Shown: positions 8,618-14,153, numbered from the stretch's first letter. The stretch: 64,000 bases of DNA from Oscillospiraceae bacterium (GCA_020860205.1 JAJBUU010000024.1:18646-82645); one strand, 5' to 3'. Notes: generated by a model from the sequence alone, not told the origin. Translations and numbers: made by a program.

Positions 8618-11017
8618 ATGTACCAGGTTCTAAAGCGCGACGGGACCGTCGTGGAATTTGAAATCAATAAAATCAGCGCTGCCATCACAAAGGCGTTCGT
8701 GGCGCTGGAAAAGGAATATCACCCCAGCGTGATCGACATGATTGCGCTGCGCGTCACTGCGGACTTTGAGAGCAAGGTCAAAAACGGCCTGATCTCCGTG
8801 GAGGACATTCAGGACAGTGCGGAAAAGGTGCTGTCCGAAACGGGCTATGCCGATGTCAGCAAGGCCTATATCCTCTACCGCAAGCAGCGGGAAAAGGTGC
8901 GCAATGTCAACTCCGCGCTCCTGAACTACAAGGATTTGGTGGACAACTATCTGCAAATCAATGACTGGCGCGTCAAGGAAAACTCCACCGTGACCTATTC
9001 CGTCGGCGGACTGATCCTCAGCAACTCCGGCGCAATCACCGCGAACTATTGGCTGAGCGAAATCTACGACGCGGAGGTCGCGGAGGCGCACCGCAGCGCG
9101 GCCATTCATCTGCATGACCTGAGTATGCTGACCGGCTACTGCGCGGGATGGAGCCTGAAGCAGCTCATTCAGGAAGGACTGGGCGGCATCCCCGGAAAAA
9201 TCACTTCCTCGCCCGCCAGCCATCTTTCCACGCTCTGCAACCAGATGGTGAATTTTCTTGGCATTATGCAAAACGAGTGGGCGGGCGCGCAGGCGTTCTC
9301 CTCCTTTGACACCTATCTTGCCCCCTTTGTCCGGGTGGATGACCTCAGCCAGAAGGAGGTCAAGCAGTGCATCCAGTCCTTCATCTATGGCGTCAACACG
9401 CCGTCCCGCTGGGGAACACAGGCGCCGTTCAGCAACATCACGCTGGACTGGACCTGCCCGAAGGATCTGGCGGAGCAGCCCGCCATCGTTGGCGGCCGGG
9501 AGATGGACTTTACCTATGGCGACTGTAAGCGCGAAATGGATATGGTGAACCGTGCGTTCATCGAGATCATGATCGAGGGCGACGCGAACGGCCGCGGCTT
9601 CCAGTATCCCATCCCGACCTATTCCATCACGCGCGACTTTGACTGGAGCGAAACGGAGAACAACCGGCTGCTCTTTGAGATGACAGCCAAATATGGCACG
9701 CCCTATTTTTCCAACTATATCAACTCCGACATGGAGCCGAGCGACGTACGCAGTATGTGCTGCCGTCTGCGGCTGGATCTGCGCGAGCTGCGCAAAAAAA
9801 GCGGCGGCTTCTTTGGCTCCGGCGAATCCACCGGCTCCATCGGCGTTGTCACCATCAACCTGCCGCGCATTGCCTATCTTGCCACGGACGAGCAGGACTT
9901 CTATCAGCGGCTTGACCGCCTGATGGACATCGCGGCACGCAGCCTGAAAACCAAGCGCACGGTCGTCACCAAGCTGCTGAACGCGGGACTTTATCCCTAT
10001 ACCAAACGCTATCTCGGCACATTTGATAACCATTTTTCCACCATCGGTCTGGTCGGCATGAACGAGGCCGGACTGAACGCGAAGTGGCTCCGCGCCGGAC
10101 TAACCGATCTGCGCACACAGCAGTTTGCAAAGGACGTGCTGAACCATATGCGGGAGCGCCTGAGCGACTATCAGGAGCAGTACGGCGACCTCTACAATCT
10201 GGAGGCCACCCCCGCCGAGTCCACGGCCTATCGTTTTGCCAGGCACGACAAGGCGGAGTTTCCGGACATCATCACCGCAAACGAGAACGGTACCCCGTAC
10301 TACACCAATTCCTCCCATCTGCCCGTGGGCTATACGGAGGATGTGTTCTCCGCGCTGGACATTCAGGACGAGCTTCAGACGCTTTATACCTCCGGCACCG
10401 TGTTTCACGCCTTTTTGGGCGAAAAGCTGCCGGACTGGAAGGCGGCGGCCAATCTGGTGCGCAAGATCGCGGAAAACTACAAGCTCCCGTATTACACGAT
10501 GAGTCCGACCTATTCCATCTGCGCCGACCACGGTTATCTGAGCGGCGAGCAGCACACCTGCCCCCACTGTGGCCGCCCTGCGGAAATTTACAGCCGCATC
10601 ACCGGTTACTATCGGCCGGTGCAGAACTGGAACGACGGCAAGGCGCAGGAATTTAAGGATCGCGTCGTTTATGACATCGGACGCTCCCATCTGACCCACA
10701 CCGGACCGCTGAATATGCCAGCCCGGACGGACGGCGCGCAGACAGACGCAGCGGAGCCTGCGGCGGAGGCGGAGCCGATGCTGTTCGCCACGCGCACCTG
10801 CCCGAACTGCCGCCAGGCAGAGAAGCTGCTGGAGGAGAGCGGCGTCGCTTACCAAAAGATCCTGGTGGAGGAAAACCCGGATATGGCACGCCGCTACGAT
10901 GTGCGCCAGGCGCCGACCCTCGTCTTTGACAATGGAGACGGTACGCAGCCCGCAAAATCCGTCGGACTGACCGGTGTGCGGAGCTTCATCGCCGCCCACA
11001 GCGCCGCGCGTGTATAA
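8618..11017 (+). CDS. nrdD: Anaerobic (class III) ribonucleoside-triphosphate reductase fused to a C-terminal thioredoxin/glutaredoxin-fold domain
   Basis: 799 aa. ATP-cone N-terminus (VLKRDGTVVEFEINKI), SMCCRLRL loop, Zn-ribbon CPHCG, glycyl-radical motif RITGYYRPVQNWN. An Ala/Glu linker is followed by residues 721-799, MLFATRTCPNCRQAEKLL...APTLVF (CPxC redoxin fold). Confidence 0.9.
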   Translation: MYQVLKRDGTVVEFEINKISAAITKAFVALEKEYHPSVIDMIALRVTADFESKVKNGLISVEDIQDSAEKVLSETGYADVSKAYILYRKQREKVRNVNSALLNYKDLVDNYLQINDWRVKENSTVTYSVGGLILSNSGAITANYWLSEIYDAEVAEAHRSAAIHLHDLSMLTGYCAGWSLKQLIQEGLGGIPGKITSSPASHLSTLCNQMVNFLGIMQNEWAGAQAFSSFDTYLAPFVRVDDLSQKEVKQCIQSFIYGVNTPSRWGTQAPFSNITLDWTCPKDLAEQPAIVGGREMDFTYGDCKREMDMVNRAFIEIMIEGDANGRGFQYPIPTYSITRDFDWSETENNRLLFEMTAKYGTPYFSNYINSDMEPSDVRSMCCRLRLDLRELRKKSGGFFGSGESTGSIGVVTINLPRIAYLATDEQDFYQRLDRLMDIAARSLKTKRTVVTKLLNAGLYPYTKRYLGTFDNHFSTIGLVGMNEAGLNAKWLRAGLTDLRTQQFAKDVLNHMRERLSDYQEQYGDLYNLEATPAESTAYRFARHDKAEFPDIITANENGTPYYTNSSHLPVGYTEDVFSALDIQDELQTLYTSGTVFHAFLGEKLPDWKAAANLVRKIAENYKLPYYTMSPTYSICADHGYLSGEQHTCPHCGRPAEIYSRITGYYRPVQNWNDGKAQEFKDRVVYDIGRSHLTHTGPLNMPARTDGAQTDAAEPAAEAEPMLFATRTCPNCRQAEKLLEESGVAYQKILVEENPDMARRYDVRQAPTLVFDNGDGTQPAKSVGLTGVRSFIAAHSAARV

Positions 11018-11043
11018 CGCATAAACATAAGCATATGACAATA

Positions 11044-11078
11044 TTCCCCCGTTAAAAAGATACTTTTTAACGGGGGAA
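11044..11078 (+). terminator. 16-bp perfect hairpin after nrdD
   Basis: ttcccccgttaaaaag-ata-ctttttaacgggggaa. No strong downstream T-run, so termination efficiency is uncertain. Confidence 0.5.
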
Positions 11079-11405
11079 TATATCAGGGGATCCATGTGGA
11101 TTTTCTTAATGAAACCGGCGGCGTTGTTCTGGTATTGGAGGAACGGGTGTCCATGGAGGCATACCGCAGCGAGGTGCTTCGGTTTGCGGACCAAATCGAG
11201 GATTTTACCGCCGGAGTAAATCGAAAATACTTCCGGCGGATGTGAATGTGCGGAACGGTTATACTGCGTTTTGGAACGAATGACACAGGCGGCGGGGATC
11301 AGCGCAGGAACGCGGCGCAGGGATATTTTCCACCGGATTCCACATCCTATCTGCGAATGCAGCAGACCAAATGCAGGGGCATGGCCCGAAAGGAGTATTT
11401 TTCCA

Positions 11406-12317
11406 ATGACACATGATATTCTGGTGGTGGGCGGCGGCCCTGCGGGACTGACCGCCGCGCTTTATGCCGCCCGCGCGGGCAAGACCGTCGCCGTGCTGGA
11501 GCGCGCCGTTCCGGGCGGACAGATTGTTTATTCCCCGCTGGTGGAAAATTATCCCGCGCTTCCCGGCGTCAGCGGCGCGGACTTCGCCGCCGCGCTTGCC
11601 GGACAGACGGAGGCGCTGGGTGTGGAGATCATCACAGCGGAGGCTGTGTCCGCCGTGCGCACGGAAGGCGGTTTCCGGTTGGAAACCGACGAGGGCGCGA
11701 TGGACTGCCGCACGCTGATTTTGGCCACCGGTGTGCAGCACCGCGCGCTGGGACTGCCCGGTGAAGCGGAGCTGGTGGGCGCCGGCATATCCTATTGTGC
11801 GGTTTGCGACGGCGCGTTTTATGCCGGACGGGATGTCGCTGTGGTCGGCGGCGGCGATACCGCAGTGCAGGACGCGCTGTTCCTCGCCAACCTCTGCCGC
11901 CGCGTCACGCTGCTTGTGCGCCGTGACCGGCTGCGCGCTTCCGATGCCGCCAAAGCGGAGACGCTGCGGCAGCGGGACAACGTGGAGCTCCGCTTTTCCA
12001 CCACTGTGGAGGCGCTTTGCAGCGCGGATGGCGCGCTGACCGGCGTGACCGTTCGGGAACGCGGAGAAACGGCGGCGCTTGCCATAGACGGGCTGTTCCT
12101 TGCGGTGGGTCAGGAACCGTCCGGCAGCGCGTTCGCCGCGCTCGCCCCTGTGGACGCACAGGGTTATTTTGCCGCCGGGGAGAACTGTATCGCCGCGCCG
12201 GGCGTGTTTGTTGCGGGCGACTGCCGCGCAAAGACCGTCCGACAGCTTGCCACCGCTGTTGGTGACGGCGCCTGCGCCGCGCTTTCCGCCTGTGCCTGTC
12301 TGGAACGGAACGGCTGA
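11406..12317 (+). CDS. trxB: Thioredoxin-disulfide reductase
   Basis: Start moved to the ATG at 11406 (AGGAG 10 nt upstream). MTHDILVVGGGPAGLTAALYAAR (FAD GxGxxG), redox CAVCDG, second Rossmann VVGGGDTAV. Confidence 0.9.
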   Translation: MTHDILVVGGGPAGLTAALYAARAGKTVAVLERAVPGGQIVYSPLVENYPALPGVSGADFAAALAGQTEALGVEIITAEAVSAVRTEGGFRLETDEGAMDCRTLILATGVQHRALGLPGEAELVGAGISYCAVCDGAFYAGRDVAVVGGGDTAVQDALFLANLCRRVTLLVRRDRLRASDAAKAETLRQRDNVELRFSTTVEALCSADGALTGVTVRERGETAALAIDGLFLAVGQEPSGSAFAALAPVDAQGYFAAGENCIAAPGVFVAGDCRAKTVRQLATAVGDGACAALSACACLERNG

Positions 12318-12323
12318 CGCGGC

Positions 12324-14153
12324 ATGAATGGGTTGAGGTATGTATTTCCTGCGGCGACTGTCGCGTTCCTGCTGCTGATTTTCTCCGAATATGTCCCGCT
12401 GCTGCGCCATGAACCGCTCGGCCCGCCGCGTCCGCCTTCGCGCTGGCATTGGCGGGATAGTGTCTGCGTCCTGCTGCTGACCGTCGCCTATGCCGCTGTT
12501 GCCTTTCCCGGTCTGGGGGATAGGAGCGGCGTGGAGCGCTTCTGCAAATTTGACACGCGCGGGGAATATGCGGAGATCACGCTGCGCGCGCCGACAAACA
12601 TCGGCGCAGTGCGCTATTATTCCGGGCTTTACATGGGCAGCTATTCTCTCCAGTTTTCCACAGACGGCGAAACATATACCGAGTACGCCGTCATGACGCA
12701 GGGTCATGCGGACGTGTTCAAATGGAACGATGCGGAGCTGGCGGAAACGGGTTTGGACGTGGTTTCCATCCGCATCATCGCGGACGATACCCTTTGGCTG
12801 GGCGAGCTGGCCATTTATGACACGGACGGGACGCTGCTGCTGGCGGGAACGGATTTCTCCTGTCCCGCAGGCTGTGCCGCGCTTTTTGACGAGCAGGAAA
12901 AGATACCGGATGCCTATCATTACAGCAACAGCACCTATTTTGACGAAATTTATCACGCGCGCACGGCTTATGAACACATTGAGAACATCTATCCCTATGA
13001 AATCACGCATCCGCCGCTGGGCAAGCTGATTTTGAGCATCGGTATCCGGCTGTTTGGCATGGTGCCGTTTGGCTGGCGCTTTATGGGGACGCTGCTGGGC
13101 GTTCTGATGCTGCCTGCACTCTATGTTTTCCTGAAAAAGATGTTCGGCGGCACGGCGGCGCCGTTCTGCTGCACCGCGATTTTCGCCTTTGACTTCATGC
13201 ACTATGTTCAGACGCGCATCGCCACGATCGACACTTACGCAGTATTCTTCACCATCCTGATGTACCTGTTTTTCTGGCTCTATCTCCGGGCGGATCGCAC
13301 AAGATATCGGAGCTGGCTGCCGCCGCTGGCGCTCTCCGGGCTGTGCTTCGGTCTGGGCGCGGCGAGCAAATGGACGTGTCTTTACGCCGGAGGCGGTCTC
13401 GCGGTGCTTTGGCTCTGTGACCGCGTATCGCGCGGTGTGGCGCTCTGCCGCGCAGGGCAGACGCGCGCCTGCCTCCGGGAAACGGCGCGCAATATCCTCT
13501 GCTGTCTGCTCTTTTTCCTGCTCATCCCCGCTGCGGTTTACTATGTCAGCTATTGGTCTTATGGAACGGCGCGCGGACTGAGCGGCTTTGGGATGCTTTT
13601 TTCCAAAGACTATCTTCAAATCGTGCTGGACAACCAAAAGTATATGCTCAGCTACCACAGCGGCGTCACGGCCACGCACCCCTATTCTTCGGTCTGGTGG
13701 CAGTGGGTGCTGGACATCCGCCCGATCCTGTACTATCTGGAATATCTGGACGACGGGATGCACGTCTCCTTCGGTGCATGGGTCAACCCGATGCTCTGCT
13801 GGGGCGGGCTTCTGGCCATGCTCGCCATGTTTTATCTGACCGTCCGCCGCCGGGACAGGACCGCGCTGTTCATCGCGGTCGGCTATCTGGCGCAGCTTTT
13901 GCCGTGGGTGCTGGTGGAGCGCGTGATATTTGAATACCACTATTTTCCCAGCACGGTTTTTCTGCTTCTGGCGCTTGGCCATGTGTTCCGCACCCTTCAG
14001 CTCCGGCACCCTCAATGGCGGCGCATCGTGGGGTCATTTACCGCTGTTTCGCTGCTGCTGTTTGCCGTATTTTATCCCGCGCTGCGCGGACTTGCGATTC
14101 CGGGCTGGTATGGGAGCAATTTCCTGAAATGGTTCCCGACGTGGCCGTTCTGA
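12324..14153 (+). CDS. GT39/PMT-family glycosyltransferase (polyprenyl-phosphate-sugar dependent) with an extra N-terminal beta-sandwich (discoidin-like) domain
   Basis: 609 aa. Loop-1 motif YFDEIYHARTAYEH..HPPLGK and many TM helices. Residues ~60-170 (YAEITLRAPTNIGAVRYYSG...LWLGELAIYD) resemble an F5/8-type-C carbohydrate-binding module. Confidence 0.75.
   Translation: MNGLRYVFPAATVAFLLLIFSEYVPLLRHEPLGPPRPPSRWHWRDSVCVLLLTVAYAAVAFPGLGDRSGVERFCKFDTRGEYAEITLRAPTNIGAVRYYSGLYMGSYSLQFSTDGETYTEYAVMTQGHADVFKWNDAELAETGLDVVSIRIIADDTLWLGELAIYDTDGTLLLAGTDFSCPAGCAALFDEQEKIPDAYHYSNSTYFDEIYHARTAYEHIENIYPYEITHPPLGKLILSIGIRLFGMVPFGWRFMGTLLGVLMLPALYVFLKKMFGGTAAPFCCTAIFAFDFMHYVQTRIATIDTYAVFFTILMYLFFWLYLRADRTRYRSWLPPLALSGLCFGLGAASKWTCLYAGGGLAVLWLCDRVSRGVALCRAGQTRACLRETARNILCCLLFFLLIPAAVYYVSYWSYGTARGLSGFGMLFSKDYLQIVLDNQKYMLSYHSGVTATHPYSSVWWQWVLDIRPILYYLEYLDDGMHVSFGAWVNPMLCWGGLLAMLAMFYLTVRRRDRTALFIAVGYLAQLLPWVLVERVIFEYHYFPSTVFLLLALGHVFRTLQLRHPQWRRIVGSFTAVSLLLFAVFYPALRGLAIPGWYGSNFLKWFPTWPF

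What the first reader, a model, noticed from the sequence alone, without database searches (positions are those of the whole stretch)
8618..12317. Class III RNR fused to a thioredoxin-fold domain, adjacent to trxB, with no nrdG nearby
NrdD normally ends just after the glycyl-radical motif (here RITGYYRPVQNWN). This ORF continues in frame through an Ala/Glu/Thr linker into a ~79-aa CPxC redoxin domain (MLFATRTCPNCRQAEKLL...QAPTLVFDNGDG, nt 10778-11014). The next conserved gene is thioredoxin reductase. Published biochemistry shows that some NrdD subclasses use thioredoxin or NrdH-like redoxins instead of formate as reductant (Neisseria bacilliformis and Methanosarcina barkeri enzymes). A covalent NrdD-redoxin fusion with TrxB next door would be a self-contained version of that system. 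There is also a GGAGG (10765-10769) 8 nt before the in-frame ATG at 10778, so the redoxin might additionally be made as a separate protein. The activase gene nrdG is not present near nrdD in this window. The active-site loop carries adjacent cysteines (SMCCRLRL).
Basis: partly seen in the sequence, partly recalled or inferred. Interest (0 to 1): 0.65.

Follow-up and report, generated by a model that had tools for sequence, protein, structure and literature searches.

The report
Anaerobic RNR with built-in thioredoxin-like domain
This gene encodes an oxygen-sensitive ribonucleotide reductase with a small thioredoxin-like domain tethered to its tail and a thioredoxin reductase gene next door, an arrangement conserved across many gut Clostridia that probably lets the enzyme carry its own electron donor, although nobody has tested this.

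Summary
One ORF (8618-11017, 799 aa) encodes an ATP-cone, a class III RNR core with glycyl-radical motif, a roughly 33-aa linker predicted to be disordered, and a 79-aa CPNC thioredoxin-fold domain. A low-Mr thioredoxin reductase gene (11406-12317) follows. No nrdG lies in the 64-kb window.

It is not an assembly error. At least 600 stretches in the collection of species-representative genomes encode relatives. All 79 of the best 80 loci that could be analysed carry the same fusion, with invariant CP[N/K]C and cis-Pro. trxB lies directly downstream in 56 of 72 assessable loci, and nrdG directly upstream in 56 of 73.

The active site is the thiol-reductant type (NrdD2): beta-A Cys175, finger-loop M380-C381-C382-R383 and Glu529, all invariant in the 80 sequences. 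The retained Met leaves formate chemistry possible.

The suggested internal start is not supported. Met721 is present in only 15 of 80 sequences, and GGAGG occurs 9 times inside the ORF.

The most likely mechanism is that TrxB reduces the tethered redoxin, which re-reduces the active-site disulfide after each turnover. This is inferred, not shown.

One paper (2018) lists a single grx::nrdD fusion, in a supplementary table. I found no biochemical study. I rate it a new member of a known kind, of moderate interest.

The parts
8503..8531 (+). Promoter-like site TTGACA-17-TATAGT with a TG extension, upstream of nrdD
   Evidence: Matches 11 of 12 consensus positions. This is a consensus match only.
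8618..11017 (+). nrdD::redoxin fusion ORF, 799 aa plus stop
   Evidence: AGGAGG Shine-Dalgarno sequence at 8607-8612.
8624..8893 (+). ATP-cone allosteric domain (residues 3-92)
   Evidence: PF03477, 78.2 bits.
8978..10672 (+). Class III RNR catalytic barrel plus glycyl-radical domain (residues 121-685)
   Evidence: PF13597, 637 bits. PRK08270 equivalog, 1143 bits. Foldseek top hits are all class III RNRs.
9140..9142 (+). Cys175 on strand beta-A (aligns with T. maritima C125)
   Evidence: Alignment. Invariant in 80/80.
9755..9766 (+). Finger-loop motif M380-C381-C382-R383 (aligns with T. maritima SCCR 328-331)
   Evidence: Invariant in 80/80. pLDDT below 50 in the AF2 model.
10202..10204 (+). 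Glu529 (aligns with T. maritima E495), the proposed active-site base of thiol-dependent NrdD
   Evidence: Invariant in 80/80.
10520..10570 (+). Zn-ribbon cysteines C635, C648 and C651
   Evidence: Invariant in 80/80. Aligns with the T. maritima Zn site.
10604..10606 (+). Gly663, the glycyl-radical site in RITGYY
   Evidence: Read from the sequence. Invariant in 80/80.
10679..10777 (+). Flexible Ala/Glu/Thr/Pro linker (residues 688-720)
   Evidence: pLDDT below 50 for residues 700-717. Linker length (as delimited) is 27-101 aa in relatives, with no sequence conservation.
10778..11014 (+). 79-aa thioredoxin-fold redoxin domain. CPNC at 10799-10810, cis-Pro766 at 10913-10915.
   Evidence: PF00462 above cut-off. 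Predicted beta-alpha-beta-alpha-beta-beta-alpha fold, block-mean pLDDT mostly 87-91. Profile hits to PfPDO, MJ0307 thioredoxin and NrdH.
11041..11081 (+). 19-bp perfect hairpin just after the nrdD stop codon; a possible terminator or processing site
   Evidence: The 93-nt segment folds at -36.6 kcal/mol, z = -7.5. Unique in the window. No U-tract, so the terminator scan did not call it.
11406..12317 (+). trxB, low-Mr thioredoxin reductase (303 aa). CAVC at 11796-11807, VRRDRLR at 11916-11936.

Best explanation
The gene encodes a thiol-dependent (NrdD2-type) class III ribonucleotide reductase that carries its own reductant. In each turnover the 2'-OH is removed at the expense of a disulfide between Cys175 (strand beta-A) and one of the finger-loop cysteines (C381 or C382), with Glu529 acting as the base. 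The 79-aa CPNC thioredoxin-fold domain hangs on a roughly 33-residue linker predicted to be disordered, after the glycyl-radical domain. It re-reduces that disulfide, in its own subunit or in the dimer partner. The TrxB flavoenzyme encoded downstream then re-reduces the domain. In this organism TrxB probably uses NADPH, because two of the three basic residues of the 2'-phosphate-binding HRR motif are kept (VRRDRLRA; His to Val).

Glycyl-radical installation still needs an NrdG activase, which must be encoded outside this window.

Shown here: the domain architecture, the active-site residue set, conservation of the fusion, and synteny with trxB and nrdG. Inferred: the direction of electron flow, which disulfide is the target, and the pyridine-nucleotide preference.
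For: 1. Architecture. ATP-cone, NRDD and Grx-like domain lie in one frame. The NrdD equivalog profile ends at residue 687.
2. Active site. Cys175, MCCR 380-383 and Glu529 align with T. maritima C125, SCCR 328-331 and E495 and are invariant in 80/80 sequences. A third Cys plus a Glu defines NrdD2 (PMC4493059), and N. bacilliformis NrdD2 uses thioredoxin (cited in PMC9669993 and PMC4390871).
3. The fusion is maintained by selection. At least 600 stretches in the species-representative genome collection encode relatives. All 79 of the best 80 loci that could be analysed are fused, across assemblies labelled as several Clostridia families (Oscillospiraceae, Acutalibacteraceae, Lachnospiraceae/Butyrivibrio, Christensenellaceae), Acidaminococcus and Gordonibacter. 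CP[N/K]C and the cis-Pro are invariant, while the rest of the domain is only about 40% identical and the linker is hypervariable.
4. Synteny. trxB is on the same strand directly downstream in 56 of 72 assessable loci, with a median gap of 100 nt. nrdG is directly upstream in 56 of 73.
5. Structure prediction. The domain folds confidently as a thioredoxin fold, and the linker is predicted disordered, as expected for a tether.
6. Domain relatives. The nearest characterised relatives by profile are small redoxins that, to my knowledge, are reduced by TrxR-type enzymes rather than glutathione: PfPDO, MJ0307 thioredoxin, NrdH and the YruB family. The domain also has the thioredoxin-like Y-x-[VI]-[RK]-x-A-P-T-L motif.
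7. Precedent. A Grx domain fused to NrdB works as the RNR reductant in Facklamia ignava (PMC6187632).
Against: - There is no biochemical evidence for any member of this clade.
- The finger loop is MCCR with an invariant Met. That residue is used in formate-dependent chemistry in E. coli NrdD. The two enzymes for which a protein reductant has been shown or implicated have SCCR (PMC9669993).
- How any redoxin reaches the buried class III active-site disulfide is unknown. AF2 gives low confidence for the finger loop, and I could not inspect the model coordinates for docking.
- In this window trxB is 388 nt downstream, behind a strong hairpin, so operon coupling here is weaker than in relatives.
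- trxB is not directly downstream in 16 of 72 relatives.
- TrxB scores below the TIGR01292 cut-off.
Confidence: 0.68

Rival explanations
1. Formate remains the turnover reductant, through the Met380/Cys175 thiosulfuranyl route. The tethered redoxin serves maintenance instead. It would keep the Zn-ribbon or glycyl-radical-domain cysteines, or the CC pair, reduced so that NrdG can install the radical, or it would repair the enzyme after transient O2 or disulfide stress.
For: - Met380 is invariant in 80/80 sequences.
- Burnim et al. note that MCCR enzymes carry the components for either reductant (PMC9669993).
- Thioredoxin was reported to activate E. coli NrdD (Padovani 2001, cited in PMC4390871).
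- The domain is attached right after the Zn-ribbon and glycyl-radical domain.
Against: - Glu529 and the extra Cys are also invariant, and formate-type NrdD1 enzymes lack them (PMC4493059).
- A stoichiometric in-cis redoxin plus a usually adjacent dedicated TrxR is a heavy investment for occasional repair.
- The Met is described as an ancestral residue retained in 83% of double-Cys enzymes (PMC9669993).
Confidence: 0.2
2. The redoxin is also, or mainly, made as a free 79-aa protein from the internal ATG at 10778, using the GGAGG at 10765. It would then act in trans like NrdH.
For: GGAGG lies 8 nt before an in-frame ATG. A few hits of about 78 aa appear in the database, but on contigs of 0.5-1.2 kb, so they are probably truncated gene calls.
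Against: - Met at this position occurs in only 15/80 relatives. The others have L, I, Y, V or K.
- GGAGG occurs 9 times within the ORF and 193 times on the + strand.
- All 79 relatives analysed keep the domain in frame with no stop.
Confidence: 0.05
3. The fusion is an artefact: a lost stop codon or a chimeric assembly has joined nrdD to a separate nrdH-like gene.
For: None, beyond the rarity of such fusions in the literature. One database entry (P0002, 950 aa) is a clear internal-duplication assembly artefact.
Against: The same in-frame architecture occurs in independent isolate genomes and MAGs from 79 species-level groups, including a complete genome (AP018533.1) and cultured Pseudoflavonifractor and Butyrivibrio strains.
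Confidence: 0.01

Closest known systems
Neisseria bacilliformis / Thermotoga maritima NrdD (NrdD2 subtype, thioredoxin-dependent class III RNR; Wei et al. 2014, as summarised in PMC4493059, PMC9669993 and PMC4390871)
   Same: - Class III fold, glycyl-radical domain and Zn ribbon.
- Beta-A Cys, a double-Cys finger loop and an active-site Glu.
- The implied disulfide chemistry, re-reduced by a thioredoxin-fold protein and a TrxR.
   Different: - Here the redoxin is covalently attached to the C-terminus, and a TrxR gene is usually the next gene. N. bacilliformis was shown to use the free thioredoxin/TrxR/NADPH system.
- The finger loop is MCCR, not SCCR.
- Sequence identity to T. maritima NrdD is only about 22%.
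Methanosarcina barkeri NrdD3 with operon-encoded NrdH-like redoxin and ferredoxin:disulfide reductase (Wei et al. 2015; cited in PMC5704485 and PMC9176816)
   Same: A small Grx/NrdH-like redoxin and a dedicated disulfide reductase are genetically linked to a class III RNR.
   Different: - In M. barkeri the redoxin is a separate protein, the reductase is a [4Fe-4S] ferredoxin:disulfide reductase, and the active site lacks the Glu.
- Here the redoxin is fused, the reductase is a flavoprotein TrxR, and the Glu is present.
Facklamia ignava Grx::ATP-cone::NrdB, and other Grx-RNR fusions (Rozman Grinberg et al. 2018, PMC6187632)
   Same: A Grx-family domain is fused in cis to an RNR polypeptide. In F. 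ignava it was shown to act as the RNR reductant. The same paper lists one grx::nrdD fusion (Lachnospiraceae bacterium TWA4, subclass NrdDd, WP_082039398.1).
   Different: - The characterised case is N-terminal on the class I radical subunit and depends on glutathione.
- The NrdD case was only listed in Table S1. It is shown without an ATP-cone, and with no domain order, context or assay.
- The architecture ATP-cone, NrdD, redoxin, and its trxB and nrdG synteny, are not described there.
C-terminal shuttle cysteine pair of class I and class II RNRs
   Same: A flexible C-terminal appendage carries a redox-active dithiol that can visit the active site.
   Different: - Here the appendage is a whole folded redoxin domain placed after the glycyl-radical domain.
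- Lundin et al. state that class III RNRs have no such external dithiol (PMC4390871).
- The window's own linker has no Cys, although 28 of the 80 sequences analysed have CxC or CC in the linker.

Membership tests
Class III ribonucleotide reductase (NrdD) | NRDD catalytic barrel recognised by curated models above their cut-offs | tested here: met
   PF13597 scores 637 bits (cut-off 26). NCBIfam PRK08270 scores 1143 bits (cut-off 548) and TIGR02487 520 bits (cut-off 326). Foldseek top 36 hits are all class III RNRs.
Class III ribonucleotide reductase (NrdD) | C-terminal glycyl-radical motif RxxGY preceded by a Cys-rich Zn ribbon | tested here: met
   RITGYY with Gly663, plus C635, C648 and C651. 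All are invariant in 80/80 sequences.
Class III ribonucleotide reductase (NrdD) | Partner radical-SAM activase NrdG | tested here: inconclusive
   Absent from the 64-kb window. Present directly upstream in 56 of 73 relatives. The rest of this genome is not available.
NrdD2 subtype (thiol-redoxin-dependent class III RNR) | Third active-site Cys (double-Cys finger loop) plus a conserved Glu | tested here: met
   C381-C382 and E529 align with T. maritima C329-C330 and E495 and are invariant. The definition is from PMC4493059 and PMC9669993.
NrdD2 subtype (thiol-redoxin-dependent class III RNR) | Nucleotide reduction driven by a thioredoxin-type protein plus TrxR, not by formate | not testable with these tools
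   This needs an anaerobic enzyme assay. The Met in MCCR leaves formate possible (PMC9669993).
Thioredoxin-fold small redoxin (Pfam Glutaredoxin PF00462) | CxxC at the N-terminus of helix 1, a cis-Pro before strand 3, and the beta-alpha-beta-alpha-beta-beta-alpha fold | tested here: met
   PF00462 scores 30.3 bits in the fusion and 34.2 bits alone (cut-off 22.9). CPNC 728-731 and Pro766 are invariant. The DSSP topology of the AF2 model is E721-724, H729-741, E746-749, H754-759, E767-770, E779-782, H783-798.
Named small-redoxin subfamilies (YruB-type Grx-like, NrdH, MJ0307 thioredoxin, Grx3) | Score above the NCBIfam family cut-off | tested here: not met
   The best hit is TIGR02196 (YruB) at 31 bits against a cut-off of 88.6. 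NrdH scores 21 against 85.8 and MJ0307 22 against 92.8. 78 of 80 domains hit YruB (best E 3.9e-11; per-member scores not listed). The domain looks like a separate subfamily.
Low-Mr thioredoxin reductase (TrxB) | Two-domain FAD/NAD(P)H fold with a CAxC redox centre | tested here: met
   PF07992 scores 147 bits. CAVCDG is invariant in 61/61 neighbours. The best PDB hits are TrxRs at E 5.5e-62.
Low-Mr thioredoxin reductase (TrxB) | Equivalog score (TIGR01292) and the NADPH 2'-phosphate motif HRRxxxR | tested here: inconclusive
   TIGR01292 scores 275.9 bits, below the 343.45 cut-off. The motif here is VRRDRLR, with the Arg residues kept and His changed to Val. In 48 of 61 neighbouring TrxBs it is replaced by a consensus Q-[N/D]-L-x-x-F-T.
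Grx-fused RNR components (Rozman Grinberg 2018) | Grx-family domain in the same polypeptide as an RNR subunit | tested here: met
   The literature lists one NrdD case.

The most novel reading that the evidence does not exclude
This species-rich clade of MCCR-plus-Glu class III RNRs has evolved an in-cis electron-delivery arm, made of a tethered redoxin that in about a third of the lineages sampled has an extra CxC or CC dithiol in the linker. That would be the class III counterpart of the class I/II C-terminal shuttle, which reviews say class III lacks. It would show that the large, biochemically untested MCCR group runs on thiol chemistry rather than formate chemistry. Most partner TrxRs lack the NADPH motif, so they may draw on NADH or another donor and tie dNTP supply to the fermentative redox state.
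Probability: 0.3. Interest if true: 0.65.

Novelty: new member of a known kind. Interest (0 to 1): 0.45.

Why it matters
Two questions about class III RNRs are still open:
- How a protein reductant reaches the buried active-site disulfide.
- Which reductant the majority "MCCR" double-cysteine enzymes use.

A natural enzyme with the redoxin tethered in cis and a dedicated reductase next door is a convenient system for answering both. It is a single polypeptide with fixed stoichiometry, and mutants and truncations are obvious to design.

The architecture is also very common in gut and rumen Clostridia (Oscillospiraceae, Acutalibacteraceae, Lachnospiraceae). It is therefore likely to be a major route of anaerobic dNTP synthesis in the gut microbiome, yet it is annotated only as "ribonucleoside triphosphate reductase". 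Apart from one line in a supplementary table, the searchable literature does not describe it.

Tried and rejected
1. Domain-only database search. Searching with residues 712-799 returned only 17 hits, mostly fragments on contigs under 2.2 kb. It gave no information on free-standing homologues or on the origin of the domain.
2. Gene neighbourhoods of unfused relatives at about 50% identity (P0139, P0145, P0160). I was looking for a split redoxin gene as a Rosetta-stone partner. The contexts were short or unrelated (phage-like in one case, and nrdG but no redoxin in another), so they were uninformative.
3. Regulatory elements. A scan for NrdR boxes upstream of nrdD found one weak match (11 of 16, at 8493, overlapping the -35 hexamer) and no pair, so I rejected it. 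An Rfam scan of 8000-12500 found no riboswitch or other family; the only hits were spurious.
4. Flanking-gene synteny. There is none. Only nrdG, nrdD and trxB are conserved together.
5. Primary papers. Wei et al. 2014 and 2015 are not held in the library, so the NrdD1-3 definitions come from papers that cite them.
6. Representative search. Clustering at 50% identity collapses the fused clade into a few clusters, and many representatives contain inteins. It shows that the fusion is confined to one clade but gives no species count.
7. Model coordinates. I could not read them, so no distance between the redoxin domain and the active site could be measured.
8. I did not establish whether the published TWA4 protein belongs to this same clade.


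Full report
**1. Observation**

The window contains one uninterrupted ORF at 8618-11017 (+), 799 aa.
- Pfam finds an ATP-cone (residues 3-92), the NRDD class III RNR domain (121-685, 637 bits) and a Glutaredoxin-family domain (721-769). The last scores 30.3 bits in context and 34.2 bits alone, against a gathering score of 22.9.
- The NCBIfam equivalog PRK08270 matches residues 1-687 over its whole 684-position profile at 1143 bits. The protein is therefore a complete NrdD plus a 112-residue extension.
- The quoted motifs are all present: RITGYY (Gly663), CPNC (728-731), SMCCRLRL (379-386), and GGAGG at 10765 followed by ATG at 10778.
- The next gene is a low-Mr thioredoxin reductase. Its real start is ATG 11406 (AAGGAG upstream; alignment to solved TrxRs begins at residue 3), and it ends at 12317.
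- No NrdG-like gene exists anywhere in the 64 kb. No coding ORF carries CxxxCxxC, and tblastn with three NrdG proteins from relatives gives nothing better than E 0.005.
- No other thioredoxin or glycyl-radical enzyme is encoded in the window.

**2. The fusion is real and widespread**

I analysed 79 of the 80 best loci, and every one of them continues in frame from the glycyl-radical domain through a linker into a CPxC domain.
- The loci are labelled Oscillospiraceae, Acutalibacteraceae, Lachnospiraceae/Butyrivibrio, Christensenellaceae, Acidaminococcus and Gordonibacter, among others (MAG labels may be unreliable). They include a complete genome (AP018533.1) and cultured strains.
- In the protein database the 120 best clusters are nearly all 789-822 aa (one is a 950-aa assembly artefact, see section 8). 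The few entries that carry a source name are called only "ribonucleoside triphosphate reductase".
- In an alignment of the window plus 79 relatives, CP[N/K]C, the cis-Pro (Pro766) and the following Thr are invariant or nearly so. The domain as a whole is only 29-62% identical to the window's copy.
- The linker varies from 27 to 101 residues (median 34) and has no conserved sequence. This is the pattern expected for a functional domain on a flexible tether.
- The representative search at 50% identity shows that unfused NrdDs of 688-711 aa start at about 50% identity to the query. The fusion therefore marks one clade.

**3. Active-site type**

- Alignment to T. maritima NrdD places Cys175 on C125 (strand beta-A), M380-C381-C382-R383 on S328-C329-C330-R331, and Glu529 on E495.
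- All are invariant in the 80 sequences.
- As summarised by Aurelius et al., NrdD2 is defined by the third Cys plus the Glu, NrdD1 (formate) lacks both, and NrdD3 lacks the Glu (PMC4493059).
- Burnim et al. describe two finger-loop types, MGCR (formate) and MCCR/SCCR (double Cys). They point out that the N. bacilliformis enzyme shown to use thioredoxin has SCCR. [quoted passage not shown]
- The window's enzyme is therefore NrdD2 by definition, but it belongs to the MCCR group, for which I found no biochemical study in the papers I could read.

**4. The redoxin domain**

- The AF2 model (mean pLDDT 84.3) gives the domain a canonical beta-alpha-beta-alpha-beta-beta-alpha fold, with block-mean pLDDT mostly 87-91. 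CPNC sits at the N-terminus of helix 1.
- Residues 700-717 of the linker and the finger loop 379-401 have pLDDT below 50.
- A profile of the 80 domains hits the C-terminal unit of Pyrococcus protein disulfide oxidoreductase (1J08, 1A8L), the 85-residue MJ0307 thioredoxin (1FO5), thioredoxins, and NrdH (4F2I, 1R7H).
- Among NCBIfam models the YruB Grx-like family is matched by 78 of 80 domains, but where scores were reported they are far below the cut-offs (window domain 31 bits against 88.6).
- The motif Y-x-[VI]-[RK]-x-A-P-T-L resembles the region around the cis-Pro in thioredoxin (my own knowledge of E. coli Trx: YGIRGIPTL).
- These relatives are, to my knowledge, reduced by TrxR-type enzymes rather than by glutathione. 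That fits the neighbouring gene.

**5. Gene neighbourhood**

- trxB lies on the same strand directly downstream in 56 of 72 loci with enough sequence to judge, with a median gap of 100 nt. In one locus it overlaps the nrdD stop codon.
- An NrdG-type radical-SAM activase lies directly upstream in 56 of 73 loci, with a median gap of 179 nt.
- No other flanking gene is conserved.
- The ancestral unit is therefore nrdG, then nrdD::redoxin, then trxB. The window's lineage, like its closest relatives L001, L003 and L004, has lost the adjacent nrdG. Because the enzyme cannot work without it, nrdG is presumably elsewhere in the genome (inference).
- In the window the nrdD-trxB spacer is unusually long at 388 nt. 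It begins with a 19-bp perfect hairpin (93-nt segment -36.6 kcal/mol, z = -7.5), so co-transcription here is uncertain.

**6. TrxB**

- It has the CAVC redox centre and the GGGDTA dinucleotide motif. At the position of the NADPH 2'-phosphate motif HRRxxxR it has VRRDRLR.
- Its best solved relatives are ordinary NADPH-dependent TrxRs (E 5.5e-62). Ferredoxin-linked FFTR structures (entries 6GNA and 6GND, identified from my own knowledge) are far weaker, at about 1e-25.
- Among 61 neighbouring TrxBs only 13 keep the RR...R pattern. In the other 48 the consensus is Q-[N/D]-L-x-x-F-T.
- According to Valette et al., the HRR residues select for NADPH and are missing in NADH-, ferredoxin- and F420-linked TRs (PMC5627308).
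- NADPH is therefore plausible here, but not for most of the clade.

**7. Internal start**

- The Met is present at this position in 15 of 80 sequences. The others have L, I, Y, V or K.
- GGAGG occurs 9 times within the nrdD ORF and 193 times on the + strand.
- The SD-ATG pair is therefore most simply a by-product of Ala-Glu-Ala-Glu-Pro-Met codons. A separate product cannot be excluded, but there is no comparative support for it.

**8. What is known, and verdict**

- Rozman Grinberg et al. searched RefSeq (March 2018) for Grx-RNR fusions. They list one NrdD case (Lachnospiraceae bacterium TWA4, subclass NrdDd) in Table S1 and did not study it. The table gives composition, not domain order, and has no ATP-cone plus Grx plus NrdD entry.
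- Lundin et al. state that class III RNRs have no external dithiol (PMC4390871).
- Four further full-text searches found no description of this architecture.
- None of the solved class III structures matched has a C-terminal redoxin domain.
- The kinds are known: thiol-dependent NrdD, and Grx fused to RNR subunits, including one listed NrdD. I therefore call this a new member of a known kind, uncharacterised and much more common than the literature suggests.
- The most likely mechanism is in-cis re-reduction of the active-site disulfide by the tethered redoxin, recharged by TrxB (confidence about 0.68).
- The main rival is formate-driven turnover with the redoxin serving activation or repair (about 0.2).
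- The database entry P0002 (950 aa) is an internal-duplication assembly artefact and has no bearing on the fusion.

Noticed in passing
Linker region of relatives, for example L001 10149 upstream, L009, L013, L015, L027, L050, L064 and L075 (tails printed). The window's linker (10679-10777) has none.: 28 of the 80 sequences analysed carry CxC or CC clusters in the otherwise low-complexity linker (for example CTCT, ACACTCGC, ERGCCEP, GGGCCCG, CGCGC), and 32 have at least 2 Cys there. This is far more than expected for Ala/Glu/Pro-rich spacers. It recalls the C-terminal shuttle cysteines of class I/II RNRs, although a metal site is also possible.
   Followed up: partly
trxB genes downstream of nrdD in loci L001-L080. 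Window trxB motif at 11916-11936.: In 48 of 61 neighbouring TrxBs the NADPH 2'-phosphate motif HRRxxxR is replaced by a consensus Q-[N/D]-L-x-x-F-T, while GGGxxA and CAxC are kept. Only 13, including the window (VRRDRLR), keep the arginines. Most partner reductases may therefore use NADH or another donor.
   Followed up: partly
window 11041-11081: A 19-bp perfect inverted repeat (AATATTCCCCCGTTAAAAAG-ATA-CTTTTTAACGGGGGAATAT) lies 24 nt after the nrdD stop codon. It is unique in the window and has no U-tract. A second, weaker hairpin follows at about 11085-11106. Rfam's only hit there is a spurious miRNA match.
   Followed up: partly
Proteins P0122-P0270: Many representative NrdD relatives are 1000-1879 aa and match the query in 2-4 separate stretches, which suggests intein insertions in the NrdD core at recurring positions (near query residues 267, 380 and 400).
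   Followed up: no
Protein P0146 (782 aa): This is a divergent homologue from an apparently AT-rich organism. It keeps the overall NrdD-plus-tail layout but has lost the beta-A Cys, the CCR finger loop, the glycyl-radical motif and the CxxC. It looks like a pseudoenzyme or a decaying gene.
   Followed up: no
Protein P0002 (950 aa): This database entry contains an exact internal duplication of about 150 residues (WGTQAPFTNITLDW...PRIAYL, repeated). It is an assembly artefact in a public metagenome record.
   Followed up: yes
window 7004-8395 (+): The gene upstream of nrdD, where relatives have nrdG, encodes a 463-aa putative lipoprotein (signal peptide with a Cys lipobox-like LCGCGS). Its C-terminus is a Pro/Thr/Glu-rich repeat (PTETPAPTESPVPTETPVPTGTPTPTETPAPTESPVPTETPAP).
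   Followed up: no
window 8503-8531: A near-consensus extended -10 promoter (TTGACA-17-TATAGT, with TG) lies 87 nt upstream of the nrdD start. No paired NrdR boxes and no riboswitch were detected.
   Followed up: partly
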